DNA from: a virus
Length of the DNA: 41,417 nt
Reading direction: 5' to 3' (one strand)
UHGV virus genome: UHGV-0392655
Shown here: in pieces, positions 1 to 41,417 of the stretch
Layout: each line of letters opens with the position of its first letter
Numbering within the stretch: the stretch's first letter is position 1
Program-made: the position numbers and the translations under genes
Notes under the pieces: generated by a model
What the model was told of the DNA's origin: nothing
Seen by the model: only the letters and a program-made list of their open reading frames with translations
Databases searched by the model: none

Positions 1-386
1 GAATCATCGGCAACATTGCCGCCGGCAACCTGGCGGATGGAGACACCATTCCGCAGGACATCAGACTATACCGTGAACTGGAAAAAGGGGAATACTTGCT
101 GCGCGTGAACGGTCACTCTATGGAACCTTCCATTCCGGACAGTTCCGTGGTCATCATGAAAAAATACACCATCCCCCCCATCCCCAAACCTGGAACCATT
201 GTTCAATACCATGATGAACGCGGCGTGACGCTCAAAAAACTGGTCCGCAGGAAAAACCCGGAAACCGGTAAAATGGAATACGTATTACATCCACTTAATC
301 CCGACTTCGGAGACATCGAACCCATGGACGGCGGCAAAATCTCCGGCATCTATGTGGAAACGCTGGAGAAGTGGAAAAAGGCATAA
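1..386 (+). CDS. C-terminal S24 (LexA/CI-type) autopeptidase domain of a phage repressor. The 5' end is truncated by the window edge, and the frame is open from position 3. It is the continuation of the HTH ORF at 41042..41417 if the genome is circular.
   Basis: Translation '...IIGNIAAGNLADGD...YLLRVNGHSMEP...VTLKKLVRRKNPETGKMEYVLHPLNPDF' has the Ala-Gly cleavage-site context, a Ser nucleophile (GxSMEP) and a Lys general base (KKL), as in lambda CI and LexA. No start codon exists upstream within the window. Confidence 0.8.
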   Translation, partial: IIGNIAAGNLADGDTIPQDIRLYRELEKGEYLLRVNGHSMEPSIPDSSVVIMKKYTIPPIPKPGTIVQYHDERGVTLKKLVRRKNPETGKMEYVLHPLNPDFGDIEPMDGGKISGIYVETLEKWKKA

Positions 387-496
387 ATGTAATTATATGT
401 TAGTTGTTGTGTAATCGTTCACAAAATATGCTTGCCGTTAATTGATTATAAAACCGTATTGTATTCTGCAACAAATAAGCATGTGATATCCATTAC

Positions 497-706
497 ATGA
501 AAGCTCTCGCAATCATCATCACAGCAGTATCCTTGGCTACCCTAGCCAACGCTCATTCCGGGCGTACCGACAAGAACGGTGGTCATTATGACCGCAAGAC
601 CGGCACGTACCACAAGCACATGTTTGATACGTGCCACTCCGGTAGATTAGATTCCAACGGTGGGCATTACGACCGCAAGACTGGCACGTACCACCGCCAC
701 AGATAA
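497..706 (+). CDS. Small secreted protein with two tandem YHYH-type repeats (GRxDxNGGHYDRKTGTYH[KR]H).
   Basis: N-terminal signal peptide MKALAIIITAVSLATLANA is followed by two near-identical ~25-aa repeats. The gene is AT-richer than the phage core. Confidence 0.6.
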   Translation: MKALAIIITAVSLATLANAHSGRTDKNGGHYDRKTGTYHKHMFDTCHSGRLDSNGGHYDRKTGTYHRHR

Positions 707-723
707 GCGGAAGGTTTCTGTTC

Positions 724-756
724 AGCCCTTGGCCTCCGGGTCAGGGGCTTTTTTGT
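724..756 (+). terminator. Rho-independent terminator downstream of the YHYH gene.
   Basis: Hairpin AGCCC..GGGGCT followed by TTTTTT. Confidence 0.45.
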
Positions 757-794
757 TGTTCTTTACAGAAGAAAAAGATAGCTACTTGTTACGT

Positions 795-1205
795 CTATCT
801 ATTTGCCCGCTCTTTTTCTATACGATCCTTATTTGCTTCAATCCATGATTTTGGTGTTGCATTTTTACAGTTGCCTTCCCATTTGTACGAAACAACCTTA
901 TTGCTTTTTATCATAAAATCTGTTGTACAGTTGTAATTAGTATCAGCGGCGGCCCACATTCCTAGTGCATCTCCTAAAGGATCTCCTGTTGGCTGAGGAG
1001 TAAAATTTTTGTATTTGACATATTGAATGATAGTATATCCATCCTCTGTTTTAAATTGTTTGGATGGGGTGCCCCAATCAAATAGAAGTTCCGAAGAAGA
1101 TTTACCTAAATAGGATTTGACATAATCATCGTAGTAGCATTGAGAACAAGAAGAAACAAATCCAGAGAATAACACAGTGACAATAGAAAAGAGAGAAGCT
1201 TTCAT
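795..1205 (-). CDS. Lipoprotein (moron). Start taken at MKASLFS.
   Basis: Signal peptide with lipobox-like FVSSC. AT-rich codon usage unlike the phage core. The six-frame ORF extends to 1244 but the internal ATG at 1205 gives a canonical signal peptide. Confidence 0.5.
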   Translation of the reverse strand: MKASLFSIVTVLFSGFVSSCSQCYYDDYVKSYLGKSSSELLFDWGTPSKQFKTEDGYTIIQYVKYKNFTPQPTGDPLGDALGMWAAADTNYNCTTDFMIKSNKVVSYKWEGNCKNATPKSWIEANKDRIEKERANR

Positions 1206-1237
1206 ATACACTATACATATATAAAATGTGGTTATTT

Positions 1238-1254
1238 TTGTCAAGTATTGACAA
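1238..1254. promoter_or_regulatory. Perfect palindrome TTGTCAAgtaTTGACAA in the divergent promoter region between the lipoprotein gene and the HTH-paralog operon. Candidate operator.
   Basis: 7-bp inverted repeat with 3-bp spacer, directly seen. A TTGTCAA half-site also occurs in the main repressor operator region (40931..40937). Confidence 0.35.
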
Positions 1255-1303
1255 CAAAGCCCCCCCTCATATTCTCCCTTTTCCGGTATGATAGTTCTAA
1301 GGA

Positions 1304-1648
1304 ATGCACTCGAAAAGTGACATCAAGAAATGGCTCAAAGAAACCGGAAAGGACTGCAACTGGCTCGCTGAACAATGCAGAGTCAGTATTCGCACGGTGT
1401 ATGGCTGGATGTCGGTCCGGAGAAAAATACCAGCCAAGTCACTTGCCCGCATCCGGGAGTTGATGGGCGAGGTGGAGCCATCCTTGGGCGTGATCAAAGG
1501 AGTGGAGAAAGGAAGTCTTGAGGCTCTGCAATTGGAAAACACCATTCTCAGGGCGTGGATTGCGTCGCACCTGCAGCCCGGGGAAGTGATAGATATTGAT
1601 GAATGGATAAAAGATTATTGCCATAATATCCACAGAGAGCTAAGTTGA
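1304..1648 (+). CDS. HTH DNA-binding protein. It is a paralog of the N-terminal domain of the CI-like repressor but lacks the S24 peptidase domain.
   Basis: 'SDIKKWLKETGKDCNWLAEQCRVSIRTVYGWMSVRRKIPAKSLARIRELMGE' aligns with 'EDIKTWLKEIGKDRAWLAEKTLVSKRTVDNWLSAGKPIVPQKMELIEKLMSGE' from 41042..41417. Confidence 0.6.
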   Translation: MHSKSDIKKWLKETGKDCNWLAEQCRVSIRTVYGWMSVRRKIPAKSLARIRELMGEVEPSLGVIKGVEKGSLEALQLENTILRAWIASHLQPGEVIDIDEWIKDYCHNIHRELS

Positions 1649-1651
1649 GGC

Positions 1652-1900
1652 ATGACTATGAGAAAACTGTTGATCTATGCCGCCTCTGCTGTGTGCCTCT
1701 CCGTGGCTTCCATTGGAGCTTGCCCTGTGGGAAGCACTCAGACTTCTGTGAAGATAGAAGCCGCGCAGGGGAAATACTGGATCAGCTCAACAGGGAAGAC
1801 GCATAACTCTTCTTGCCGATACTACAACAACTGCAAGGGATATTGGAGTGATACCGGTAGCGGTGTGAATTGCAAGATTTGTGGCGGGGCAAATAAATAA
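1652..1900 (+). CDS. Small cysteine-rich secreted lipoprotein (82 aa). Candidate superinfection-exclusion (Cor/Llp-like) protein.
   Basis: Signal peptide ending in lipobox-like SIGAC. The mature part has 6 Cys (CRYYNNC, CKICGG). It starts 3 nt after the HTH paralog's stop. Confidence 0.45.
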   Translation: MTMRKLLIYAASAVCLSVASIGACPVGSTQTSVKIEAAQGKYWISSTGKTHNSSCRYYNNCKGYWSDTGSGVNCKICGGANK

Positions 1901-1916
1901 TAATCTAATCAACGTA

Positions 1917-2507
1917 ATGAAGCAAATATTACTATTTTTTTCACTTCTTTTCCTTTCATCAACCGGATTTTCTTTTAATGTTCCGGACATGATGGACGAG
2001 CTTATTAAGTTGTTTGGTAATGATATGCGTCTAATAGATGATTCAATGTTGGCAATAAGGGTGAACGATAAAAAATCATCTCCTGTTCTTTATGTGTATT
2101 TTTGTGATGAAGATACCCAATCGCTCAATATAGAAGAGGCGATGAGACAGTATATCAACAAAGGAAAGAAGTTGTTGTTTAATAAAATAATTATAGGGTC
2201 TCATGTTATTAATGTACCAAGAGTAGAACGATGGATAAAGAGTAAGAATAATCCATTGGAATTAACTAAAAAAAATGTATATGATATATTTCAAAAAGCA
2301 TGCATGGGAATGGGGATTATAATGGATGGAGAAAAAGACGTAAACAGTTGGATGTACGTTGGAAAAATAGAACCGCCGGTAGTAGATGTTTTTGGTACTG
2401 ATGCAGTCATGTCGGAAAAAGAAGCAATCTTCCTCATCTATTCCCATGTGATAGCCAGAAGAGTTTTAGAAAAAACTATAGAAAGAATGGAAGGTTTAGG
2501 ACAATAG
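1917..2507 (+). CDS. Secreted or membrane-anchored hypothetical protein (about 197 aa) encoded by very AT-rich DNA.
   Basis: Start at MKQILLFFSLLFLSSTGFSF (hydrophobic N-terminus). The strong terminator follows immediately. Composition is sharply different from the phage core. Confidence 0.5.
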   Translation: MKQILLFFSLLFLSSTGFSFNVPDMMDELIKLFGNDMRLIDDSMLAIRVNDKKSSPVLYVYFCDEDTQSLNIEEAMRQYINKGKKLLFNKIIIGSHVINVPRVERWIKSKNNPLELTKKNVYDIFQKACMGMGIIMDGEKDVNSWMYVGKIEPPVVDVFGTDAVMSEKEAIFLIYSHVIARRVLEKTIERMEGLGQ

Positions 2508-2543
2508 CTTCTATAGAATAAACAATTCTTCTGAATCATGTTA

Positions 2544-2579
2544 GCCCTCCTCCCCACCCTCCAGGGAGGAGGGCTTTTT
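2544..2579. terminator. Strong intrinsic terminator at the 3' boundary of the moron island, 5 nt from the stop codon of the giant gene.
   Basis: Perfect 11-bp stem GCCCTCCTCCC/GGGAGGAGGGC with a 9-nt loop followed by TTTTT on the plus strand. Confidence 0.65.
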
Positions 2580-2583
2580 ACCG

Positions 2584-5500
2584 TCAATCTATCACATCCG
2601 CTACAGTCTTCACCGGATTCATCAGAGCAGCTCCTAGCGTCATATACTGCCCGGCAGTCTGAATCGTCTTATTCGCCATGCCGCTGGCAATCCCGCCTGC
2701 CGCGCCAAACACGCGTCCCAGCCGGATCACCTGCTTCATGTAATCCCCGGCTTCATGGCCGCCCTCCTGCATTATCTCGCCCAGCTTCCAGGCGGCATTC
2801 CAGCCTGAGCGGAAATCAATCAGGGCGCGGCCGGCGGAACCTGTGTACACCTTGGACCCCAACAACTCGGAAAACAGCCACTCTACGGCTTCCCCTACCA
2901 GCGGCATCCCGGCAATAGGACCGGCCAGGGCAGCGAACAAGTACCCCTGCCAATCGCGCTTCTCCCACTCCTCTTCATCATCCTTCATGTAATCCAGCAT
3001 GGCGCCGATGATGGCGTTAAACGCCCCGTAGGCCAGCCATACCTTTCCAGCCTTGGATAAGGAAGCCCACCGCTGTTTGGGCGTCACCCCTGGGGCAAAC
3101 CCGGCCCGTGCCAGTCCGTAAATCGCAGCCGTTTTATTGTGATTCTCGCTCATCATGTAGAAAATAGCGCGTCCCCAAGCGCCGCGGTGCAGGCCGCCAA
3201 ACGACTTGTCAATCCACGTCTGGGGCTGGGCGGAATGCAGCGCATTCCTCACCGCCTGCCACGCCTCGTCTTTTGCCCTCCCTTCCTCCACGCCCGCCTT
3301 GACGGCCTGCCGGTACTTGATATTCCAGAGGGCGGCGGACCCCACAGCATTGAAAAACACATCCGTGTACTCAATCCCGTTCATTCCCCACACCAGCGCG
3401 GCCTCCGCCAGCGTGTAGGAGGAATCATCCCTCAGGCGGGACAATGTCTCCACGTCAACCCGGTCATTCAGCCGCGCCTGGAACTCGGCGCTCTTCATCA
3501 TCTTAATCACCCCCATCTCCGCCGTTCCGTTACGCATCTTCGCCATCGTCCCCAGGTAATCCCAGAAACCGATGCTCGGATCTCCAATCCACGCATTCAG
3601 CACGGCGGCCCCCTGCTTCATCAGCGTCTCAAACCGGAATGCCAGAATCGCCTTCGCCTGCCCGGAATACACGGCATTAAGAAGCTTATCCAGGGAACCC
3701 ACCGCCTGCCCCTGAACCACGCCGGCCCGCTCCAGCAAATCCACCCAGCGGCGCAGCCTCACAAAATCATCCTTCCCCAAATTCGCCACCAGGCTCTCGG
3801 CCACCTCCCGGCGTCGCAACAGCCCCCGGAAATCCGCCGTAATATCCTGCGTGTAATACCAGTGGTCCGTCATATCCGTCGCCTCCCAGAACACGGAAAG
3901 CGCCCCCACGCTCGTATCCAGCCTCCGGTGATGCTTCGTCCTCACCCTCTGCCAGCCCTGGTTCCCCCCCTTCGTGCTCGGCACGCCGGAAATCATATCC
4001 GCCGCATCCGCATCACTCATCGCATCCAGCGCCCAGAAACGGGCAGGGAAATAATTCTCCACGCGGGGGAAGGGAACGCCCGTCACCTGCTCGTACAGCT
4101 TCCCGATCTTATCCCCCTGGGCCTTCAGCAGCTCCCGCAGCCCGTAGCCGATCGCCATGCCTTCTTCCCCCACGTACTCGCGCAAAGCGGAAATAACCTC
4201 CGGCGTATACCCCTGCTGCTTCATCATCTCCCGGTAATCCTCCTGCTCGGACTGCAGCACCAGGTACAGGGCATTATCCCGGCTCAACACCAGCGGGGAA
4301 CCCTCCTCCCCCTTAAAAGACGCCTTCGCCGTCACATACTTCCGGTAGACCGGCCTCCTGCCCTCAGCCCTCGCCCGGGCCGCGGCCTCCTCATGCTCCC
4401 GCAAGCGGGCCAACAGAAGGTCCAGCGTCTCTTCGGAAAAATACTCCATCCCCTCCTCCCATCGCTTCCGGATAAACTCCTTCCTCTGCCGGGCATCCAT
4501 CTCCCGCACCTCCCGGGCCTGCTCCAAGGTCAGCCGCGCCGTCTGCGTAATCCACCCATTCAGCCGGACTTTTGTATCGTGGCTCGTCTTAAACCACGTC
4601 ACCCATCCAGCCATATTGCCAACCTTCCTGGCCTTCATCACCTTCTCCGTAAGATGTTTCTCATAAAGATCCTGCACGGCGGCGGCACGCAGCCCGCGGG
4701 CATCCCGCATCTGCTGGAACGCATTCGTCAGCCGGCTGCGCATATCGGTCGTGAACTCCTGCAGGGCGGGCATCGTTCCCATGCGCGTCAGCAGCTGGTC
4801 CATATTCTCCATGAAATCGCCGAAATTCTTGAAACTCACCTTCCCGTGGAACTTCTCATTGGCGGCGCGCAGCGTATTCTCATCGGCCTTCTTCCCGGTC
4901 TGGTTGAACCTCTCCACAATCCTCCTTCCAATCGCATTCAGCCGTTCGGCGGCGGCCTCCTGCACGGCGGCCCATCCCTCCTTCTCCGTATTGATGTAAA
5001 TCTCCAGCGCCTTCGCGGCGGCCTGCGCCTCGTCCACGCTCATCCCCTCCAGATTCCCGTACAGGGCCAGCCGGGTCAGCTCCTCACGCAGCTCCTCCAT
5101 CCTGGACACGGCCTCGCCGTCCATCTGGTCGGGGTTCTCCTTCTCCAGCTTATCCAGCTCGGCGGCAGCCTCATTCATCGCCGCCTCCTTCTCCATGGCC
5201 GTCATCCGGAGCAGGGGCACCACCTGATCCGTTAAATAGGCGTAAGCCTCCATGGAAACCTTCCCCTTCTGCTGCTTCCCGTTCTTCTTGCGGATAGTGA
5301 GAACCTGGTCCAGCATCCGTGCCATGCCGGCGGAAACTCCATCCTTGGCCAGCGCTTCCAGTTTCCCGGCGGCCTTCTCCATCACCTCGGCCATCAGCTC
5401 GTGTAAACGTTTCTCCGCCCAGGCCTTGCGTACCTTCTCCATCTCATCCTCAAACACCTCTTTGGCGAACTTCTGCGTTGGCTTCTTACCCTTCTCCCAG

Positions 5501-8500
5501 GCTGTGCCGGCAGCCGTGACCCTGGCTGTAATCTCTGCTTCCTCCATCCCCTCCCGGGTCGCCTCCGCCATCTCCCGCTTAATCTCCCGGCGGGCAAACG
5601 CATTCACCATTCTTGTCTCATCAATCTTCCCCTTGGCCGCCAGCTCCGCCAGAATCTGCAACCGGTCGATGTAGGGCTTCACGGCCACGCGGTACCCGGC
5701 GGGCAGGTGCATCAGGGCACTCTTCACCAGGGCAACATTGCGGCCCACATTCACCAGGAACGCCGCTTCATCCGTTTTCCCGTCGTAGCGTCCCCAGGTG
5801 GCGGCATCCGCTCGCAGGTTGGCGGCGATCCGGTGGACTACCTCAAGATTCTGTGTTCCACGGCTCACACGGCGTGGGAAACCTTCGGACAAGGAAAACG
5901 TCGCCGTCGGATCCTCATAATCCGCCCACGCTCCCCCGGTGGACTCATCCGCAAACGCCGTAATCTTGATATCGTTCCCGTCAAAAATCACGTAATTATA
6001 CGTCTGCTCCTCCTCTGCCTTATTGCGGGTATAGCCGTCAGCATACTTGATTCCCTTAATATCGCTGGACAGCAAAGACACGCTGGCGGCCTTCTGCGCC
6101 TCCTGTTTCGTGCCATCTTCTCCATCCCAAAAAGCATCAAACAACTCCTGATAAACATCTTTGCCGCTCACGTTTTCGCCGCGGTAATCCGCCCGTCTTT
6201 CGGCACGTTCCAAAGCATACCGCACCTCTTCCACCGGGGAATCCTTCAACAAGGCAAGAACCGTCTCGTCCACGTAATCCCAGCCCATCAACTCGGAATC
6301 CTCTACATTCAGCTCCACGCGGTAATTGGAAGGCATGCCCGTCCTCACCTCTATCTCGTCCAGATGGTCAAGCAGAGAAAGCATGAAGCCTTCCAGTTGT
6401 TCCAGCTTCTCCCGCTCCTGGGGGTACGTCTCCGCGTATTTCCTGTTAGTATCAATTTCATCATGCAACTCCATGACGATGTCTAAAACAGTCATGCTTC
6501 CTCTGGCGGCATCAACCAAATCGCCAAGAACAGACCAGGCGATATCTGACGCGTCCTCCTTCGCCTCCGGCAGGGCATCCTTCGGCAAAAAACTGCCTAC
6601 CAGGGATCGTTGCATCACTTCTATAACGCCAGTCTCCACCTCCCGGAACTTCCATGTCGCCTTATCCTGCGCGAACTGGTTCATATAACTCCGGTTCACC
6701 TTCGGATTCTCCGCAAAATACAGCCCCCAGCCATACGCCTGCGCTCCTTCTCCTTTACCCATGAAATCCGTAGAAAATTTGCGGAAAGAATGAGGGGAGG
6801 CATGCAGGGCAGTAATGGAGAACGTCACGCCCGGTTCCGTAATCACCGCGTTGCCCGCTTCAAAATGGCCGTCATGGAACAAACCCTGTTCCTGTGCCGA
6901 GGCAATGGAAAAAGCAACAATCGCCTCACCTGGGAACTCCAGCGTATCATTAAACGGCACAGCTTCCCGTTCCCGTGCCGTCATATCCCGGCGCTTCTCC
7001 ACATTCCTTGCCTCTATTTCCCCGGCCAGACGCTGGTAAAGGTCAAACGGCTCCAAATCCTTCAATTGCCGCACAACAGCTTCTTTCCCCCTGTAGAGCT
7101 TTTCCAGCTCCTGCCAGATCCTCTTTTCCTCCCCGGGAAACCTCATCTTGCGGGAAACCGTTGCCTTCACCATCTCAATCTGTCGGTCTATCTGCTCTAT
7201 GGTGACAGCATCCACATTCACCCCGCCGCGGAGCAACATCCCGGCGTAACAAATCGGCAATTCGCAACCTTCGGCATCTTTCCCCATCGTTAATTTGCCG
7301 TACTCCGCATCCTGTGCGACAAGCTTATTATACTCCTTCAAAAGCAACTCAATAGCCTGCCTGGCCATCACATCTACATCCATCACCTCATGCACGGCAA
7401 ACCGCTCGGACATCTTCTTAATAGCCTTCGGATTCCTTATCAACCTGCGTATCCGGCCTAAAGCGTCCAAAGCCGCATCACGGGCTAAAAGCCAACTCCT
7501 GCGCCTCGTCTTCGCAATAATATCCCCTGTGATCCTGTTGCGTTGATAGGTAAGAACCCTCTCCGCAAAGCCAGAATCCCCCCCCTCGGCAAAACCCTCA
7601 TATTCCTGAATCGCATGTTGAATCTCATGAAGCAACGTGGAACGCTGATTCCAAAGCGGCCCCAGGCTGGACAAATTGATGGCAATGGAGTCATCCTGGG
7701 GATCATACCATCCTGCCTCCTGCCGGTTGCGGTCCTTAAACACATAAACAGACATCTTCTTCAAGCGGGGATAGGCATCATACAACTCGGAATAATCCAA
7801 ATAATCTGACAAAACGCCTTCCTTCCTTGGATTCTTCAAATAGCGTATATCCTCCGCCAAAAGATCCAGTCTGGAAAGATAAGGCATTCCAGGCGCAGTC
7901 TTCAGCTGTGCCTGGCTTGCGTCAATCTCCGCCCGCAACTTGCCGTCATCCCTTCCGGCGAAAGCCTTATCGGCATACTTTCCCCAAGTGGCCGCATTCG
8001 GGCCTATCACGGAAAACGTAATATCCGGATTCTTCGGATCAAACGTCCCCCGGTTATCCGTGGCGGACTTGATCTGATTCGGCTCAAAGGCAATGTACTC
8101 CGTCCATTTACCCAGTACAGCAATGAGTCCATCATGTCCTCTTTCTTGAGCGCTACCGGCTATCTGGGCCGCTCCTCTCGCATACGGCCGGAATATTCCA
8201 AACCTGTCATCTTCATGAAAATTCCCATCCCAAATATTTAAATAATCGCCTATCTCTTCAGCAGACTTGTAATCATTAAAAATAAAAGGATTCCTGAAAT
8301 TCAGAAACAGAGCCAGCTTCTTGTTCCCGTACGGAGTATTCTCCATATTGGTAAAATAAAATCCTCTACCCCATATACCATAATCAGTAGCAGATCCAAT
8401 CCTGGCCTTGTCAAACACCGTGAAATCACCGTATGTCCCATGATACACCACCCTCGGCTCTCCATTCTCGTCCACCACCTTGGAAGCATTCTCCGGGTCA

Positions 8501-11500
8501 TGCTCCCAATCGCCAAACCAATTCTTAAACGCCGCCGTGCGCACGGAAAGCCACTGGTCTTCCGTCAGATTCGTTTCCTTCCCATTCGGGGCCTTCATGA
8601 ACGTCCCGTCAGCGACCACCTTCTTCCTGATGGACGCCTTTTCCTTCTCGACAAACGAACGATAGGAAGATAAATTACGGGTAGAAACCCCGTCCTTAAA
8701 GGGTGTAGGTAGGCGGCCTTCCCGGCTAGCAGCTCCCCTAGCGGCGGGGTTTTCTATAGTCAATTCCAGCGTGTAAAGAACGTTACCTTCCTGTTCCTTA
8801 ACGTATTTGATTGCTGTAACATTAACATCAAACGCTCCTATCCCTTCAATATCTACTGTATTGAAAAAATGATAGGCTCCGGCTTTTGAGGCATCTTGTT
8901 TATACGCCTCTTCAAAAAATCCATCCTCCGCATTCTCAAACAACTCGTGAATGCGGGCCGTAGCCGTATAATGAACCCTCCGGGCCTCCTCCGCGGAAAA
9001 CCCAAGCGCCTTCAAATTCGCCACGGACATTTGGGCCGCCCCGGCCTTGCCCACCGTCTTGCCGGAAACGCGCGCCTCAATCACGGCCTGAATCCCCGTA
9101 TTCTTATTAACGAACACCTTGCCCTGCAACGGCTTCAACCTCGCCCGCATCTCGGCGGCGGTAGTGATCACCTCCCCGGAAGGAATGGACACCAGGGAAA
9201 AACTGACGGAGGAATCCTCTGCCAGGGACATGGAAACCCCGCTGCCGCCGACCTCTTCAACAATACGCTGAACATCGGCTTCCCCCTGTCGCGCCCCCTC
9301 CTGCATCCAGTAGGACTCCAAACTATTGGAAAGCGCATGAACCATCTGAGCGAAATCCGCGTCAATCGGGACGCTCTCCCCGGCCAGCCGGCGGCGCTCC
9401 ATCTCGTGCAGACCTGTACCCAAATCCAGCAGAGCCTTGGCGGAAGAAACCCACTGGCGCACCATCTGCAGAAAATCCTTCATCCACTGGGGCAGCCTCA
9501 TATCCGCGGCCCGGGCCAATACGTCGCCCTTGGCCAGCATGCTCATCCCCTCAACCACATCCTTCACGGAAACCTCCCCATCCTTCCGGATCAAATCCTT
9601 CCTCTTGCTTAAATACCCCTCCTTGCGCAATGCGTCCTGAAGGGCCCGCAGATTATTCGCGTACCAATCCAGGCTATGCTTCGTATTCTCCATATCCTCC
9701 GTCAGGTGGGTCTCCAGCACCTCCTCCAGCAATTCAGGAACCGTCACCTCCCCCTTGTGGAAGCGGATCAGCGTCTGCCCATTCCTCATCGCCACCCGGT
9801 ACGCGTTGCTGTGTACACGCCGCGAGGCGGAAACCTCCCCGCGCGCCACACCCAATTTCACGCGCTCCTCAAAAGAAGAACCCATCCCGGCAGCCTGCCC
9901 GTACGTCATCCGCGTTCCCAGGTCCTGGGCCTCGGCATTCACATCCGCCCCTTCGGCAATGCGCAGCCGGGCGGCCTCGGCCAGCTTCCGGGCCGTCTCC
10001 ACCGTCTCGGCCCTCCCCATATCCTCAAACACATACTTCCCGGACTGAGACAGCTGGTCGATCGTCCTGTCCACGGCAAACGCCTGCTGGGCCTCCAGCA
10101 TCCTCAGGCGAATCCCGTCGTGCAGCAGGGCCTGCATCCGCGCCGTGGCGTCCTGTTCGCTCAGCTCCAGAACATCGTAAGACTCCTGTCCCTCCGCATC
10201 CCTGACTGTCGTGGTAAACCTCCAACTCCCATCCCCCAAATCCTCCACGCGGGGCAGATTAAGAAGCTCCACCTCCGCCTGATAAGCCTCCTGACGGGCC
10301 AGCCATGAAAAATCCTCCTTCATGGCGGAAAACCCCTGTCGCACACTCTCCAGCTGGGCCGCCCGGTCGGACATGCTCAACGCGGCCTGGAAAATCTCCC
10401 GGCTCTTCTCCACGGGATCCACAATACTGGCAATCCTCTCCGCCTCGGCGCGGTCTATCCCCAGCCCCTCGATCTGCGGGGCGCCCACCCGTGAAACCCG
10501 CGCCTCCCGCGCAAACGCCGGAATCTGGGCTCCTCCGACCACAGCGCCGAACATCAGCATCTGGAAACCAAGATCAGGATCCGCCGCGCCTCTCAGCAGC
10601 TCCTTCCAATCCTCAACCGTCATCCCGTTTCCACTCCCAAACAATCGGGCAAGCCCGGCATCCAGAGGAGCCTGGAGCGTCGGTTGAATAAACTCCTCCA
10701 TCCACTCGGAACCACCCGCGGCCAGAGACGCAACGCCGTAGCGCAGCGCGGCATTACCGTACAACCCGCGCTTCATCATATCCGTAGCGCTCCCCATATA
10801 CCCGGCAAATTTGCCGGCAAACGGCATCTTTCTGCCAAGAAACCGCAACGTCTTAAACAAGCTCTCGCCGCCCAGCCTCTCCACCAGAACCTCCGTGCCC
10901 CCGGCTATTCCGCCCCGTATGAGGGATTCCAGCGGGGAAACGCCTTGGGCGCGCAGCTCCTCCATCCTGTCGTTGGCGACGGACGCAAACGTTCCCATGC
11001 CGCGCGTAGCCAGGAAAAAGGAAGTCTGGGCAGCCATTCTTCCCAGCCCGTCAAACTGGCGGCGAATCCACCAGGCCCCATCCGGGGACTCGGCAATCTC
11101 CGCCTTCATCGCCCGGATTTGGGAAATCATCTCATTCTGATCCGGGGTCAAAACGCGGTACGCCTGCTTCCCCTCGCTATCGCGCACCACGGGCGCAAAA
11201 CTCTCTCCTGTCGGCTGCCACTCAACCGTATCCCCCTCACGCACATCTCCCAAAAGCAACTGCTCAAACAATGAAGAAGAACTCTCCATCATCATCCTCA
11301 TCGTTCGGTTAAAAGGAGAAACAAACAACGTGGAATCATTCCTCAACCGTTCAGCATCCGCCTTATACAAACCAATCACGGCCTCGGCTGCCATGGGATC
11401 TTCTGTTTTTAAATCCAGTAAAGCCTTGGCAAAATCAAACACATTGGCATCCGTTATATTGCCTGTCATCTCATCCCGCGCCTCCTGGCGGAAATCATCC

Positions 11501-12504
11501 ATCGTCCTGGAAAACGGATTGGGCAGGCCACCCCAACTCAGGGAAGCGTCATTTTTGGAAACGTAACGTTCCCTCTCTTTGACATACGCGTCCGCAAGCT
11601 CTTTGGCCCGTCGCTCTACGGCCGCCTCCGGATGCAAATCAAAACCGCGCCCCCTCAGCCAATCAGCCGCATGCTGGACGGCCTGTCCCCAGGGAGTTCC
11701 ATACCCGCAATGCAACATCGCAAAATTTTCCTCCTCCGGAGTCAATTCTCCCGCCTTCCCCAGAGCCTCCAGAAAACCTTCCCCATTCATCATGGCGCGG
11801 ATAACAGGAACAGCCTTGGCCGCAAAACTCCTTCCCGCCTCCGCCTCCTTCTCCTGCGCCTTGAAAAATGGTTGTCTGCCCGCGTTCCACCTGTCCCATA
11901 CATCCCGGCTCCCGCGGATCCCCTCCGGGGCATCCACGGAAGACAAATACCGGATCATGGAATCCCCGTTCCTGTCTCCCGGCCGTGAATAAAACTCTTC
12001 CAGAACCTTCTCGCCGCGTACCCGGCTCTTATGTTCGTCCGGCACGGCCTCAAAAGCCCTGACCCACTCCTCGCCGTAAGCCTCCGCCGCCTTCTTCCTG
12101 GCCTCGGGGTGGGCCTTCCAATCCATCCCCAGCGCGTCCAGCCGTTCCACCTTCTGCTGATACTCCCTCCTCTCCCTCTCCCCCAGCGGACTGTCGTAAT
12201 TCTCCAGAGCCTGCCTCCGCTCCCACTTATCCAGCTCATTGGATAAGGCAACCCTCGCCGGGCCATCCTCCAGCGTATCGTAAACCGCCAAAGCCTCCTT
12301 AAAATCCAGACCGCTCCCAACAGGAGGCGGAGGCTCCACCATATCCATGGTCTTAAAACTCTGATGGGAAATCTCGCCGTAAGGCTCAAGCCCCGTGACG
12401 CGCCCGGCATCCTCCAGCTGCAGCCGGGGAGAAAACGCTTCCTCCCGCAGCCCCTCGGCAGGAACGCCTGCCAAACTGTTTTCGGAAAAAGAAAATTCAT
12501 TCAT
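2584..12504 (-). CDS. Giant (3306 aa) internal virion/ejection protein, large polyvalent protein-like. It carries two PARP-like ADP-ribosyltransferase catalytic cores and an HExxH zincin metallopeptidase motif, with long coiled-coil regions and hydrophobic C-terminal segments.
   Basis: Uninterrupted 9.9-kb ORF. 'VVYHGTYGDF...DYGIWGRGFYFTN...TEYIAFEP' (8040..8470) and 'ALHASPHSF...AYGWGLYFAEN' (6480..6910) match the PARP H-G-[ST]...Y-x-x-G-x-Y-F-A pattern. 'LLHEIQHAIQEYEGFAEGG' lies at about 7565..7640. Gene position after the internal virion proteins parallels T7 gp15/gp16. Confidence 0.7.
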   Translation of the reverse strand: MNEFSFSENSLAGVPAEGLREEAFSPRLQLEDAGRVTGLEPYGEISHQSFKTMDMVEPPPPVGSGLDFKEALAVYDTLEDGPARVALSNELDKWERRQALENYDSPLGERERREYQQKVERLDALGMDWKAHPEARKKAAEAYGEEWVRAFEAVPDEHKSRVRGEKVLEEFYSRPGDRNGDSMIRYLSSVDAPEGIRGSRDVWDRWNAGRQPFFKAQEKEAEAGRSFAAKAVPVIRAMMNGEGFLEALGKAGELTPEEENFAMLHCGYGTPWGQAVQHAADWLRGRGFDLHPEAAVERRAKELADAYVKERERYVSKNDASLSWGGLPNPFSRTMDDFRQEARDEMTGNITDANVFDFAKALLDLKTEDPMAAEAVIGLYKADAERLRNDSTLFVSPFNRTMRMMMESSSSLFEQLLLGDVREGDTVEWQPTGESFAPVVRDSEGKQAYRVLTPDQNEMISQIRAMKAEIAESPDGAWWIRRQFDGLGRMAAQTSFFLATRGMGTFASVANDRMEELRAQGVSPLESLIRGGIAGGTEVLVERLGGESLFKTLRFLGRKMPFAGKFAGYMGSATDMMKRGLYGNAALRYGVASLAAGGSEWMEEFIQPTLQAPLDAGLARLFGSGNGMTVEDWKELLRGAADPDLGFQMLMFGAVVGGAQIPAFAREARVSRVGAPQIEGLGIDRAEAERIASIVDPVEKSREIFQAALSMSDRAAQLESVRQGFSAMKEDFSWLARQEAYQAEVELLNLPRVEDLGDGSWRFTTTVRDAEGQESYDVLELSEQDATARMQALLHDGIRLRMLEAQQAFAVDRTIDQLSQSGKYVFEDMGRAETVETARKLAEAARLRIAEGADVNAEAQDLGTRMTYGQAAGMGSSFEERVKLGVARGEVSASRRVHSNAYRVAMRNGQTLIRFHKGEVTVPELLEEVLETHLTEDMENTKHSLDWYANNLRALQDALRKEGYLSKRKDLIRKDGEVSVKDVVEGMSMLAKGDVLARAADMRLPQWMKDFLQMVRQWVSSAKALLDLGTGLHEMERRRLAGESVPIDADFAQMVHALSNSLESYWMQEGARQGEADVQRIVEEVGGSGVSMSLAEDSSVSFSLVSIPSGEVITTAAEMRARLKPLQGKVFVNKNTGIQAVIEARVSGKTVGKAGAAQMSVANLKALGFSAEEARRVHYTATARIHELFENAEDGFFEEAYKQDASKAGAYHFFNTVDIEGIGAFDVNVTAIKYVKEQEGNVLYTLELTIENPAARGAASREGRLPTPFKDGVSTRNLSSYRSFVEKEKASIRKKVVADGTFMKAPNGKETNLTEDQWLSVRTAAFKNWFGDWEHDPENASKVVDENGEPRVVYHGTYGDFTVFDKARIGSATDYGIWGRGFYFTNMENTPYGNKKLALFLNFRNPFIFNDYKSAEEIGDYLNIWDGNFHEDDRFGIFRPYARGAAQIAGSAQERGHDGLIAVLGKWTEYIAFEPNQIKSATDNRGTFDPKNPDITFSVIGPNAATWGKYADKAFAGRDDGKLRAEIDASQAQLKTAPGMPYLSRLDLLAEDIRYLKNPRKEGVLSDYLDYSELYDAYPRLKKMSVYVFKDRNRQEAGWYDPQDDSIAINLSSLGPLWNQRSTLLHEIQHAIQEYEGFAEGGDSGFAERVLTYQRNRITGDIIAKTRRRSWLLARDAALDALGRIRRLIRNPKAIKKMSERFAVHEVMDVDVMARQAIELLLKEYNKLVAQDAEYGKLTMGKDAEGCELPICYAGMLLRGGVNVDAVTIEQIDRQIEMVKATVSRKMRFPGEEKRIWQELEKLYRGKEAVVRQLKDLEPFDLYQRLAGEIEARNVEKRRDMTAREREAVPFNDTLEFPGEAIVAFSIASAQEQGLFHDGHFEAGNAVITEPGVTFSITALHASPHSFRKFSTDFMGKGEGAQAYGWGLYFAENPKVNRSYMNQFAQDKATWKFREVETGVIEVMQRSLVGSFLPKDALPEAKEDASDIAWSVLGDLVDAARGSMTVLDIVMELHDEIDTNRKYAETYPQEREKLEQLEGFMLSLLDHLDEIEVRTGMPSNYRVELNVEDSELMGWDYVDETVLALLKDSPVEEVRYALERAERRADYRGENVSGKDVYQELFDAFWDGEDGTKQEAQKAASVSLLSSDIKGIKYADGYTRNKAEEEQTYNYVIFDGNDIKITAFADESTGGAWADYEDPTATFSLSEGFPRRVSRGTQNLEVVHRIAANLRADAATWGRYDGKTDEAAFLVNVGRNVALVKSALMHLPAGYRVAVKPYIDRLQILAELAAKGKIDETRMVNAFARREIKREMAEATREGMEEAEITARVTAAGTAWEKGKKPTQKFAKEVFEDEMEKVRKAWAEKRLHELMAEVMEKAAGKLEALAKDGVSAGMARMLDQVLTIRKKNGKQQKGKVSMEAYAYLTDQVVPLLRMTAMEKEAAMNEAAAELDKLEKENPDQMDGEAVSRMEELREELTRLALYGNLEGMSVDEAQAAAKALEIYINTEKEGWAAVQEAAAERLNAIGRRIVERFNQTGKKADENTLRAANEKFHGKVSFKNFGDFMENMDQLLTRMGTMPALQEFTTDMRSRLTNAFQQMRDARGLRAAAVQDLYEKHLTEKVMKARKVGNMAGWVTWFKTSHDTKVRLNGWITQTARLTLEQAREVREMDARQRKEFIRKRWEEGMEYFSEETLDLLLARLREHEEAAARARAEGRRPVYRKYVTAKASFKGEEGSPLVLSRDNALYLVLQSEQEDYREMMKQQGYTPEVISALREYVGEEGMAIGYGLRELLKAQGDKIGKLYEQVTGVPFPRVENYFPARFWALDAMSDADAADMISGVPSTKGGNQGWQRVRTKHHRRLDTSVGALSVFWEATDMTDHWYYTQDITADFRGLLRRREVAESLVANLGKDDFVRLRRWVDLLERAGVVQGQAVGSLDKLLNAVYSGQAKAILAFRFETLMKQGAAVLNAWIGDPSIGFWDYLGTMAKMRNGTAEMGVIKMMKSAEFQARLNDRVDVETLSRLRDDSSYTLAEAALVWGMNGIEYTDVFFNAVGSAALWNIKYRQAVKAGVEEGRAKDEAWQAVRNALHSAQPQTWIDKSFGGLHRGAWGRAIFYMMSENHNKTAAIYGLARAGFAPGVTPKQRWASLSKAGKVWLAYGAFNAIIGAMLDYMKDDEEEWEKRDWQGYLFAALAGPIAGMPLVGEAVEWLFSELLGSKVYTGSAGRALIDFRSGWNAAWKLGEIMQEGGHEAGDYMKQVIRLGRVFGAAGGIASGMANKTIQTAGQYMTLGAALMNPVKTVADVID

Positions 12505-40935: not shown

Positions 40936-41034
40936 AAAATGCACCCAGAACGAAATTAAGTCAACATTATTTTTCGTTTCTGGTGCATCAATGGTAAATA
41001 TTTCTATTGCGCTTGATGCACTTCTGGTGCATAA
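40936..41034. promoter_or_regulatory. Repressor operator region with four GTGCAT/ATGCAC hexamers. The strongest site is the palindrome TGATGCAC-ttctg-GTGCATAA at 41014..41034, which abuts the repressor start codon.
   Basis: Hexamers at 40940, 40983, 41016 and 41027. Half-site centres of the palindrome are 11 bp apart. Direct repeat ttctgGTGCAT[CA]A at 40976 and 41021. Confidence 0.5.
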
Positions 41035-41041
41035 TGCTGAC

Positions 41042-41417
41042 ATGCTCAATGCTGAAGACATCAAAACGTGGCTCAAAGAGATAGGGAAAGACCGTGCGTG
41101 GTTAGCTGAAAAAACATTGGTCAGTAAGCGAACGGTGGATAACTGGCTTTCTGCCGGAAAGCCGATCGTTCCTCAAAAAATGGAACTCATTGAAAAGCTG
41201 ATGTCAGGAGAGGAAGAAATTGAGTTTGAGCTTCCGCCAGACTTTGAAAAGCAACTTCGCGCCATGGCGGATGAAGCAAAAAAAACTATAGAGGATATGG
41301 TTTCCCATATCCTTCAAGTCACAGCCAAGGCACATCAGAAAAGGAAAGCAGAAGCTCCCAGCCAGCAGTTTACCCCGGTAGAAACATTCACAACCCCTCC
41401 TTTGGAGGCTCAGGGAC
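41042..41417 (+). CDS. N-terminal HTH (XRE-like) DNA-binding domain of the CI-like repressor. The 3' end runs off the window with no stop, and the same frame continues into 1..386 across a circular junction.
   Basis: 'MLNAEDIKTWLKEIGKDRAWLAEKTLVSKRTVDNWLSAGKPIVPQKMELIEKLMSGEEE...' is open to the last base. The trailing C at 41417 plus GA at 1..2 make CGA (Arg), joining to ...IIGNIAAG... in frame. Confidence 0.75.
   Translation, partial: MLNAEDIKTWLKEIGKDRAWLAEKTLVSKRTVDNWLSAGKPIVPQKMELIEKLMSGEEEIEFELPPDFEKQLRAMADEAKKTIEDMVSHILQVTAKAHQKRKAEAPSQQFTPVETFTTPPLEAQG

What the first reader, a model, noticed from the sequence alone, without database searches (positions are those of the whole stretch)
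1238..2580. Moron operon: peptidase-less repressor paralog plus two secreted/lipoproteins next to the immunity gene
Directly downstream of the repressor is a tight three-gene plus-strand unit with 3-nt and 16-nt gaps. The first gene (1304) duplicates the repressor's HTH domain but lacks the S24 autocleavage domain, so it is predicted to be SOS-insensitive. It is preceded by its own perfect palindrome, TTGTCAAgtaTTGACAA. The next two genes (1652, 1917) encode a 6-Cys lipoprotein of 82 aa and a ~197-aa secreted/anchored protein from very AT-rich DNA. The unit ends in a strong terminator. In lambdoid phages this position hosts lysogen-expressed exclusion or defence genes (rexAB, sieB). Small OM lipoproteins in this position are reminiscent of Cor/Llp receptor-blocking proteins. 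The combination could be an uncharacterised lysogenic-conversion or superinfection-exclusion module with its own non-inducible regulator.
Basis: inference. Interest (0 to 1): 0.6.

Follow-up and report, generated by a model that had tools for sequence, protein, structure and literature searches.

The report
Mosaic accessory gene block in Akkermansia prophage
This is a patchwork set of "passenger" genes in a temperate virus of the gut bacterium Akkermansia muciniphila: a small DNA-binding regulator copied from the virus's own repressor, followed by two exported proteins of unknown function. It is a fairly ordinary kind of region, and nothing links it to known phage-exclusion proteins.

Summary
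The sequence features are real: three tightly packed plus-strand genes (1304-1648, 1652/1658-1900, 1917-2507), a perfect palindrome at 1238-1254 and a strong terminator at 2543-2580.

Several details of the finding are wrong or overstated.
- The unit is not directly downstream of the repressor. A YHYH gene (497-706) and a minus-strand lipoprotein gene (795-1205) lie between them.
- Only the third gene is AT-rich.
- The lipobox cysteine of the 82-aa protein is present in only 7 of 24 homologs.
- The palindrome is absent from every related locus and occurs at near-chance frequency.

Gene 1304 is an XRE/SinR-like helix-turn-helix (HTH) protein that matches only residues 1-56 of the S24 repressor. 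In other Akkermansia prophages it is a separate cassette bracketed by terminators.

The 82-aa protein carries a His-Cys3 module restricted to Akkermansiaceae. The module also occurs as a chromosomal gene, fused to YHYH, and in the same prophage slot without the HTH gene.

The 196-aa protein is an orphan under weak constraint.

In relatives the same slot holds ankyrin, Sel1 or H-type-lectin proteins.

Best reading: a mosaic lysogenic-conversion ("moron") block. There is no support for a Cor/Llp, Rex or SieB relationship. Function is unknown and interest is modest.

The parts
1238..1254 (.). Perfect palindrome TTGTCAA-gta-TTGACAA in the 98-bp divergent region between the lipoprotein gene (-) and the HTH gene (+). 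It carries a TTGACA hexamer on each strand.
   Evidence: It is near chance frequency (6 observed against about 2.9 in shuffles) and is not conserved in relatives. Its role as operator or back-to-back -35 boxes is inference only.
1248..1275 (+). Sigma-70-like promoter match: TTGACA, 16-nt spacer, TATTCT (10 of 12).
   Evidence: This is a consensus match only. An alternative -10, TATGAT at 1287-1292, is invariant in four aligned relatives.
1264..1303 (+). Upstream leader that travels with the HTH gene in related prophages (CCTC..TTTTCCGGTATGATA..TTCT..GGA ATG).
   Evidence: Alignment A4. It is unique in the window.
1304..1648 (+). 114-aa XRE/SinR-like regulator: a four-helix HTH domain (residues 4-53), a linker, and a two-helix C-terminal domain (72-88, 98-113). 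It is a paralog of the CI repressor's HTH domain only and has no S24 domain.
   Evidence: similarity confined to residues 1-56. (PDB 3bs3, E 5e-4). (pLDDT 82). (Foldseek hits to SinR, C.Esp1396I, Aca2, HipB). (76 Akkermansia-only clusters). (dN/dS 0.15-0.24).
1652..1900 (+). 82-aa exported mini-protein (80 aa if it starts at 1658): signal peptide with lipobox-like SIGAC, a variable linker, and a conserved C-terminal ~40-aa module YWISSTGKTHN..C..(C)..CKICGG with a His-Cys3 pattern (H51, C55, C74, C77).
   Evidence: conservation. (hydrophobic N-terminus). (dN/dS 0.14-0.18). No curated family. Fused to YHYH in phage Chambord.
1917..2507 (+). 196-aa orphan with an N-terminal signal or anchor sequence, encoded by AT-rich DNA (GC 33%).
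   Evidence: no relatives outside its own prophage lineage in 5.8e9 and 1.84e9 proteins. (a second allele at 80% nt identity keeps the frame through in-frame indels but has one TAA). (pN/pS 0.72). (structure model unusable, pLDDT 39).
2543..2580 (+). Intrinsic terminator: perfect 12-bp G+C-rich stem, 9-nt loop, T-run. It lies between the 196-aa gene and the convergent giant gene (2584-12504, -).
   Evidence: I10; -29 kcal/mol, z -5.1.
795..1205 (-). 136-aa AT-rich lipoprotein gene (GC 36%; LFSGFVSSC lipobox), divergent from the HTH gene. It is linked to the HTH-80-196 genes in every place examined, so it belongs to the same block.
   Evidence: 8 of 8 places. (718-2700 kept in L006, which lacks the YHYH gene). 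No family or PDB match.
497..749 (+). Neighbour: 69-aa secreted protein with two YHYH repeats, plus its terminator (724-749). It is variably present, so it is context rather than part of the block.
   Evidence: (NF033223, E 4e-20), and (its DNA is replaced in L006).
1..386 (+). C-terminal (S24 peptidase) part of the CI-type repressor. The N-terminal HTH part is at 41042-41417, across the window junction.
   Evidence: (phrog_4, E 1e-13).

Best explanation
Window ~718-2580 is a mosaic accessory (moron) block in the lysogeny arm of a temperate Akkermansia muciniphila phage. It lies between the CI-type S24 repressor and the convergent giant 'polyvalent' virion protein gene.

It was assembled by recombination from independent cassettes:
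(a) A stand-alone XRE/SinR-like HTH regulator that shares only the DNA-binding domain with CI.
(b) A small exported protein carrying an Akkermansiaceae-specific His-Cys3 module, probably metal-binding.
(c) An AT-rich exported orphan of 196 aa.
(d) A divergent AT-rich lipoprotein gene.

Shown here: the gene structures, the paralogy, the fold of the regulator, purifying selection on (a) and (b), the terminator, the mosaicism, and the variable cargo of this slot.

Inferred mechanism: the block is transcribed in the lysogen from promoter(s) in the 98-bp divergent region. Expression is independent of RecA/SOS because the regulator has no cleavage domain. The regulator probably represses or autoregulates this region. 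The exported products change the cell envelope or periplasm of the lysogen, which is lysogenic conversion.

Relatives carry ankyrin, Sel1 and H-type-lectin proteins in the same slot. For that reason, interaction with the host/mucus environment is at least as likely a payoff as phage exclusion.
For: - Phage context. Terminase, portal/adaptor, major head, tail and replication genes are all on the minus strand. Only CI and this block are on the plus strand.
- A relative, phage Chambord, is an induced prophage of A. muciniphila YL44 (PMC10197239).
- Paralogy and missing S24 domain.
- XRE fold plus a two-helix C-terminal domain.
- Purifying selection on the HTH gene (dN/dS 0.15-0.24) and the 82-aa gene (0.14-0.18).
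- Terminator.
- Foreign composition of the 196-aa and lipoprotein genes.
- Mosaicism:
  - The HTH cassette stands alone or with other cargo.
  - The 82-aa gene occurs without the HTH gene in the same CI-to-giant-gene slot; similarity to the window starts exactly at 1649.
  - Chromosomal copies exist in other Akkermansia species.
- Alternative cargo in the slot: ankyrin lipoprotein (E 8e-30), Sel1 protein (E 1e-36), H-type lectin protein (E 3e-12).
- The block 718-2700 is 99.8-100% identical in contigs with different CI alleles and different early genes.
Against: - No expression data are available. The promoter is only a consensus match.
- The palindrome is at chance frequency and is not conserved.
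- In Chambord-like phages the HTH gene is monocistronic between terminators. It may therefore act elsewhere and be only accidentally fused to this cargo.
- The 196-aa gene is weakly constrained (pN/pS 0.72), and its only diverged allele carries a nonsense codon. It could be decaying.
- No homology or structural evidence assigns any function to the exported proteins.
Confidence: 0.55

Rival explanations
1. This is a dedicated superinfection-exclusion module. The small lipoprotein, with or without the 196-aa protein, blocks a receptor or DNA entry in the way Cor, Llp or Ltp do, under a non-inducible regulator that binds the palindrome.
For: - It sits in the lysogeny arm next to the repressor.
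- The window allele has a lipobox.
- The 196-aa protein evolves fast (pN/pS 0.72), which would fit an arms race.
- A second lipoprotein gene is linked to the block.
Against: - No similarity to Cor, Llp, Sie or Rex families. PADLOC gave nothing for the 82-aa protein and only one weak match for the 196-aa protein (PDC-S15, E 0.0045).
- The lipobox Cys is present in only 7 of 24 homologs.
- The His-Cys3 protein is also an ordinary chromosomal gene in other Akkermansia species.
- The palindrome is not conserved.
- Cargo in the same slot in relatives looks directed at the host, not at phages.
Confidence: 0.15
2. The HTH protein is a trans-acting second repressor with its own role. It could give SOS-insensitive immunity against other Akkermansia phages, or cross-regulate resident prophages. 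Its fusion to the exported-protein genes in this lineage would then be a recombination accident.
For: - It is a self-contained cassette bracketed by terminators in Chambord-like phages.
- In L011, L012 and L020 it is followed by convergent genes.
- It is strongly conserved across at least two phage types and under purifying selection.
- It is 100% identical in prophages with CI alleles of different length (253, 270 and 300 aa; 301 and 333 aa), so it does not co-vary with the immunity type.
- Its recognition helix differs from that of CI.
Against: - No operator has been identified, and no recurring motif was found in the window.
- The tight coupling to the next gene here argues for co-expression: the stop codon overlaps the next gene's GAGG.
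Confidence: 0.3
3. The block serves periplasmic metal handling. The His-Cys3 mini-protein, together with the neighbouring His-rich YHYH protein, binds zinc or copper and helps the lysogen with metal supply or tolerance.
For: - H51, C55, C74 and C77 are invariant across prophage and chromosomal copies.
- The module is repeatedly fused or adjacent to YHYH repeats.
- The YHYH domain was predicted to hold a Zn2+-binding site (PMC7824862).
Against: - Metal binding is inferred from the residue pattern only.
- hhalign against the N-Ada zinc domain gave probability 0.2%.
- No PDB relative was found.
- This does not explain the 196-aa or lipoprotein genes.
Confidence: 0.12
4. The cargo is largely non-functional. 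The 196-aa gene, and perhaps the lipoprotein gene, are recently acquired AT-rich DNA that hitchhikes with the phage and is decaying.
For: - pN/pS is 0.72, and the only diverged allele has a nonsense codon.
- There are no relatives anywhere else.
- The structure model is not confident.
Against: - A 591-nt open frame in 33% G+C DNA is unlikely by chance.
- All indels against the 80%-identical allele are in frame.
- The gene is intact and identical on 234 contigs from many cohorts.
- Its N- and C-terminal segments are well conserved.
Confidence: 0.1

Closest known systems
Phage morons / lysogenic-conversion cassettes (the lambda and HK97 concept: an extra gene with its own promoter and terminator and deviant base composition, inserted between conserved phage genes)
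   Same: - Located between the immunity gene and a virion gene.
- Ends in its own terminator.
- Has a promoter-like site.
- Two of its genes have foreign G+C content.
- Present, absent or replaced by other cargo in related prophages.
   Different: - It is a four-gene divergent block with its own regulator, not a single gene.
- Expression in the lysogen is not shown.
Cor (phi80/N15/T1) and Llp (T5) receptor-blocking outer-membrane lipoproteins; Ltp of Streptococcus phage TP-J34
   Same: - A small exported, possibly lipidated protein encoded by a phage.
- For Ltp, also the position in the lysogeny module.
   Different: - No sequence similarity.
- Lipidation is not a conserved trait of the family.
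- The family also exists as a chromosomal gene in Akkermansia species.
- Its conserved core is a His-Cys3 module, which those proteins lack (from general knowledge; not tested here).
lambda rexAB and P22/lambda sieB (exclusion genes next to cI)
   Same: Genes co-oriented with the repressor in the lysogeny arm.
   Different: - No homology.
- Not co-transcribed with CI: a terminator and an opposite-strand gene intervene.
- The products here have signal peptides.
SinR, restriction-modification controller (C) proteins and Aca2: small XRE-type HTH regulators with a short helical oligomerisation domain
   Same: - Best structural matches of the 114-aa model.
- Same domain plan: HTH plus two C-terminal helices.
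- As with C proteins, the regulator gene comes first and is tightly coupled to the next gene, with a palindrome upstream.
   Different: - Sequence identity is only 14-33%.
- No restriction, modification or anti-CRISPR gene is present.
- The palindrome is not conserved.
- In relatives the gene is monocistronic.
CI/LexA-type S24 repressors
   Same: The HTH domain is 46-49% identical to that of this phage's own CI.
   Different: It lacks the S24 autocleavage domain and shares nothing with CI beyond residue 56.
YHYH domain proteins (NCBIfam NF033223)
   Same: The His-Cys3 module is fused to a YHYH repeat in Chambord-type phages. A 2xYHYH gene lies 950 bp upstream in the window.
   Different: The window's 82-aa protein has no YHYH repeat itself.

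Membership tests
Phage moron | Own transcription terminator | tested here: met
   12-bp stem plus T-run at 2543-2580, -29 kcal/mol, z -5.1.
Phage moron | Own promoter, active in the lysogen | tested here: inconclusive
   TTGACA-16-TATTCT at 1248-1275 is a consensus match only. There are no expression data.
Phage moron | Base composition differs from the rest of the phage | tested here: met
   The 196-aa gene is 33% GC and the lipoprotein gene 36%. The HTH and 82-aa genes are 49%. The window is 55.7% and the structural genes 54-57%.
Phage moron | Present, absent or replaced between otherwise related phages | tested here: met
   The same slot holds other genes in relatives.
Cor / Llp receptor-blocking lipoproteins | Sequence membership in the family | tested here: not met
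   No PHROG, Pfam or NCBIfam hit for the 82-aa protein at E <= 1 apart from noise.
Cor / Llp receptor-blocking lipoproteins | Lipoprotein signal peptide (lipobox Cys) | tested here: inconclusive
   SIGAC is present in the window allele. The Cys is found in only 7 of 24 homologs and in none of the chromosomal copies.
Cor / Llp receptor-blocking lipoproteins | Blocks a phage receptor or excludes superinfecting phage | not testable with these tools
   Needs expression and phage challenge.
Known anti-phage defence systems (PADLOC) | Match to a defence-system protein model | tested here: not met
   Four of the five proteins of the region gave no hit. The 196-aa protein gave one weak hit (PDC-S15, E 0.0045, 13.9 bits).
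XRE / Cro-C1 type HTH regulators | Four- to five-helix HTH fold | tested here: met
   The AF2 model has pLDDT 82, with 87-94 over residues 11-50. Foldseek rmsd is 1.3-1.7 A over about 50 residues to SinR, HipB, C proteins and 3bs3. Profile hit to 3bs3, E 4.7e-4.
XRE / Cro-C1 type HTH regulators | Score above a curated family threshold | tested here: not met
   YdaS_toxin 16.9 bits (cut-off 30), HTH_28 14.1 bits (cut-off 25).
LexA/CI S24 autocleaving repressors | Peptidase S24 domain | tested here: not met
   No S24 hit for the 114-aa protein. The phage's CI has it at E 8.8e-9.
R-M controller (C) protein operons | Regulates a co-transcribed restriction endonuclease through conserved C-box palindromes | tested here: not met
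   The downstream genes encode exported proteins with no nuclease hit. The palindrome is not conserved.
YHYH domain proteins | Match to NF033223 | tested here: not met
   The 82-aa protein has no hit. The neighbouring 69-aa protein scores E 4e-20 and the Chambord 95-aa fusion E 1.5e-13.
N-Ada-like Cys4 zinc domain (a lead from memory) | Profile similarity to the Ada N-terminal zinc domain | tested here: not met
   hhalign probability 0.2%, 14 columns aligned. There is no Pfam PF02805 hit.

The most novel reading that the evidence does not exclude
Akkermansia prophages carry a dedicated, recombination-prone slot for envelope and host-interface proteins. It is headed by an SOS-insensitive, CI-derived regulator and a conserved periplasmic His-Cys3 (zinc) mini-protein. 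Into this slot are swapped ankyrin, Sel1, H-type lectin or orphan exported proteins such as the 196-aa protein. These would tune how the lysogen deals with the mucus layer and host, or with competing phages. The regulator would double as a second, non-inducible immunity repressor.
Probability: 0.15. Interest if true: 0.6.

Novelty: new member of a known kind. Interest (0 to 1): 0.3.

Why it matters
Akkermansia muciniphila is a health-associated mucus specialist, and almost nothing is known about what its prophages add to it. This block is common: the 196-aa protein lies on 234 contigs from many human-gut cohorts. The block also marks a variable slot that in related prophages carries eukaryote-like ankyrin and Sel1 proteins and a lectin domain. 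If these genes are expressed in lysogens, they are candidate strain-level determinants of envelope properties, host interaction or phage resistance. As it stands, the block consists of uncharacterised proteins in a familiar genomic arrangement.

Tried and rejected
1. Curated family scans of all five proteins of the region (Pfam, PHROGs, NCBIfam, PADLOC). Nothing useful came up for the 82-, 136- and 196-aa proteins.
2. Word-indexed search of 5.8e9 proteins and exhaustive phmmer against 1.84e9 representatives with the 196-aa protein. Only its own lineage matched. Three long hits (P0117-P0119) are repeat proteins that summed many weak stretches, so I rejected them as artefacts.
3. AlphaFold2 model of the 196-aa protein from 3 sequences. 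Mean pLDDT was 39, so no fold search was run.
4. PDB sequence and profile searches for the 82-, 136- and 196-aa proteins gave no significant hit.
5. N-Ada-like zinc-domain idea for the His-Cys3 module. hhalign probability was 0.2%, so it stays an untested resemblance.
6. Palindrome as a conserved operator. Rejected, because it is absent from all relatives and near chance frequency.
7. Recurrence of the conserved HTH leader elsewhere in the window: none.
8. Rfam scan of 1-3000. The only hit was a sub-threshold atoC match (27.7 bits against a cut-off of 50) lying over the terminator hairpin, which I treat as chance.
9. A conserved SNase neighbour for the chromosomal homolog. It was seen in one species only, so I did not pursue it.
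10. A 13-17-nt inverted repeat flanking the lipoprotein gene (743-759 / 1251-1267). It is similar in quality to many chance pairs in the same scan, so I noted it but did not rely on it.
11. Literature searches found no description of these genes. All public names are 'hypothetical protein'.
Full report
WHAT THE WINDOW IS

The window is a 41.4-kb tailed-phage genome of Akkermansia muciniphila, written as a circular permutation. The S24-type CI repressor is split by the window ends: join(41042..41417, 1..386), 253 aa. The two ends are contiguous in 54-103 kb metagenome contigs.

The repressor's 3' part is 92.6% identical to that of Akkermansia phage Chambord. Chambord is an induced prophage of strain YL44 (PMC10197239).

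Terminase, portal/adaptor, major head, tail and replication genes are all on the minus strand, as is a 3306-aa 'polyvalent' protein gene (2584-12504; ART-PolyVal and LPD3 in precomputed Pfam hits). Only the repressor and the genes discussed here are on the plus strand. They therefore form the lysogeny-oriented arm.

CHECKING THE OBSERVATION

The three ORFs, their 3-nt and 16-nt gaps, the palindrome at 1238-1254 and the terminator are all present. The terminator has a perfect 12-bp stem, folds at -29 kcal/mol and has a z-score of -5.1 against shuffles.

Six points need correcting:
1. The unit is not directly downstream of the repressor. In between lie a 69-aa secreted protein with two YHYH repeats (497-706; NF033223 E 4e-20), its terminator (724-749), and a minus-strand 136-aa lipoprotein gene (795-1205).
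2. Only the 196-aa gene is very AT-rich (GC 33%, GC3 31%). The lipoprotein gene is too (36%). The HTH and 82-aa genes are 49% against 55.7% for the window.
3. The middle gene more probably starts at ATG 1658 (80 aa). GAGG lies 7 nt upstream and overlaps the HTH stop codon, and gene callers used that start.
4. The lipobox Cys (SIGAC) is present in the window allele but in only 7 of 24 homologs. None of the chromosomal copies in other Akkermansia species has it.
5. Perfect 7+3+7 palindromes occur 6 times in the window against about 2.9 in composition-matched shuffles. The palindrome alone is therefore not significant.
6. The homology that the HTH gene shares with its relatives begins at about 1264, downstream of the palindrome. 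No related locus has the motif, even with 3 mismatches.

THE FIRST GENE (1304-1648)

Its product is 49% identical to the repressor over residues 1-59 (E 2e-13). Profile comparison limits the similarity to residues 1-56 (probability 97.8%). It has no S24 domain.

An AlphaFold2 model from 33 homologs (mean pLDDT 82) shows a four-helix HTH domain (residues 4-53), a linker, and two further helices (72-88 and 98-113). Foldseek finds SinR, R-M controller proteins, Aca2, HipB and PDB 3bs3, with rmsd 1.3-1.7 A over the HTH domain. A profile search of PDB sequences also finds 3bs3 (E 4.7e-4).

The family has 76 clusters at 90% identity. Every member that carries a source name is labelled Akkermansia or Akkermansiaceae, and all are called 'hypothetical protein'. 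It is under purifying selection (dN/dS 0.15-0.24).

In Chambord-type phages the gene is monocistronic. A terminator precedes it, another terminator follows it, and the next gene has its own promoter-like site. In L011, L012 and L020 it is followed by convergent genes.

'Its own palindrome' and 'regulator of this operon' are not established.

THE SECOND GENE (1652/1658-1900)

Homologs share a signal peptide, a variable linker, and a highly conserved C-terminal module, YWISSTGKTHN(x2)C RYY ... C K(I/L)C GG. H51, C55, C74 and C77 are invariant, while C61 is not. dN/dS is 0.14-0.18. No curated family, PDB relative or defence model matches.

The family is restricted to Akkermansia, Akkermansiaceae and a few other Verrucomicrobia. 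It occurs in four settings:
- As here, after the HTH gene.
- In the same CI-to-giant-gene slot without the HTH gene, behind a terminator and a TATAAT-like box. Similarity to the window begins exactly at 1649.
- Fused to a YHYH repeat in Chambord-type phages.
- As a chromosomal gene beside housekeeping genes in other Akkermansia species.

It looks like a host gene family that prophages have picked up. A His-Cys3 pattern suggests a zinc site, but this is inference. My recollection that it resembles the N-Ada zinc domain was not borne out (hhalign probability 0.2%).

THE THIRD GENE (1917-2507)

The 196-aa product has a hydrophobic N-terminus. It has no relatives outside its own prophage lineage, either in a 5.8e9-protein word-indexed search or in an exhaustive phmmer run over 1.84e9 representatives. 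The three long 'hits' are repeat-protein artefacts.

A second allele at 80% nucleotide identity (L010) also follows a His-Cys3 gene. It keeps the reading frame through in-frame indels but has one TAA. pN/pS between the two alleles is 0.72. The structure model is unusable (pLDDT 39).

The gene is real but weakly constrained. That fits either fast, conflict-driven evolution or relaxed selection.

THE BLOCK AS A WHOLE

The lipoprotein gene is linked to the HTH-80-196 genes in all eight places examined. Segment 718-2700 stays 99.8-100% identical in contigs whose CI alleles (253, 270, 300, 301 and 333 aa), early genes and YHYH gene differ. The unit that travels is therefore a four-gene divergent block of about 1.9 kb (718-2580), not the three-gene unit alone.

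The palindrome sits in its 98-bp divergent region and offers a TTGACA on each strand. It may be a pair of back-to-back -35 boxes, an operator, both, or chance.

In related prophages the position after the His-Cys3 gene holds one of the following:
- a 226-aa ankyrin-repeat lipoprotein (E 8e-30);
- a 272-aa Sel1-repeat protein (E 1e-36);
- a 214-aa protein with an H-type lectin domain (E 3e-12).

These are domains usually tied to interaction with eukaryotic hosts or glycans. That tilts the likely payoff of this slot toward lysogenic conversion at the host interface rather than phage exclusion. Neither is shown.

MECHANISM AND RIVALS

Best-supported account (confidence 0.55): this is a mosaic moron block. 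It is expressed in the lysogen independently of SOS, limited by its own XRE-type regulator, and delivers three exported proteins to the envelope.

Shown: gene structures, paralogy, fold, selection, terminator, mosaicism and slot variability.

Inferred: promoter use, regulation by the HTH protein, metal binding, and any phenotype.

Rivals:
- The HTH protein is an independent trans-acting second repressor (0.3).
- Periplasmic metal handling together with YHYH (0.12).
- Decaying hitchhiker DNA for the AT-rich genes (0.1).

COMPARISON WITH KNOWN SYSTEMS AND NOVELTY

By arrangement the block works like a moron with a C-protein-like or SinR-like regulator. It is not a member of the Cor, Llp, Rex or SieB families, of any system modelled in PADLOC, or of the S24 repressors.

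The proteins are uncharacterised, and the His-Cys3 module has no curated family. The genomic logic, however, is a familiar one. I rate it a new member of a known kind, interest 0.3.

Noticed in passing
L014 4797-5477; L016 4804-5622; L015 4856-5500 (related Akkermansia prophages, IMG/VR): The slot after the His-Cys3 gene holds a 226-aa ankyrin-repeat lipoprotein, a 272-aa Sel1-repeat protein or a 214-aa H-type-lectin protein (Pfam E 8e-30, 1e-36, 3e-12). These are eukaryote-like or glycan-binding cargo in prophages of a mucus specialist.
   Followed up: partly
window 41016-41032 and 18842-18858: ATGCACttctgGTGCAT lies just upstream of the CI start and is flanked by further GGTGCAT/ATGCACC half-sites, so these are probable CI operators. 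A perfect palindrome with the same half-site, CATGCACctgGTGCATG, lies inside the tail-protein gene near 18842.
   Followed up: partly
window 41042-41417 + 1-386: The window is a circular permutation. The CI repressor ORF runs across the ends, and the ends are contiguous in long metagenome contigs (L005, L009).
   Followed up: yes
window 497-706: A 69-aa secreted protein made of two YHYH repeats (an 81-bp direct repeat, 87% identical) with its own terminator. Its DNA is replaced in locus L006.
   Followed up: partly
window 743-759 and 1251-1267: An inverted repeat (GGGGCTTTTTTGTTGT / ACAACAAAGCCCC) brackets the AT-rich minus-strand lipoprotein gene. It could mark an inversion or insertion junction, or be chance.
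   Followed up: no
window 2584-12504 (-): A 3306-aa 'polyvalent' protein gene (ART-PolyVal, LPD3) converges on the block. Its length varies from 2938 to 3306 aa among otherwise near-identical prophages.
   Followed up: no
L011 2623-3006 and 3171-3500: Further short proteins start with the same CI-like HTH N-terminus (seen by eye) and have C-terminal halves that look ribbon-helix-helix-like. The window CI's residues 51-103 also gave a weak Arc-like hit (phrog_582, E 0.11). This suggests a family of HTH-plus-small-domain regulators in Akkermansia phages.
   Followed up: no
L024 3106-3846 (-) and 4001-4246 (+): In one Akkermansia-like genome the chromosomal His-Cys3 homolog is divergently adjacent to a secreted SNase-type nuclease gene. 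This was not seen in the other species examined.
   Followed up: partly
window 1304-1648, residue 30: The window allele has Arg at position 30, at the start of the predicted recognition helix. All 32 aligned homologs have His there (alignment A2). This might go with a lineage-specific operator such as the palindrome.
   Followed up: no
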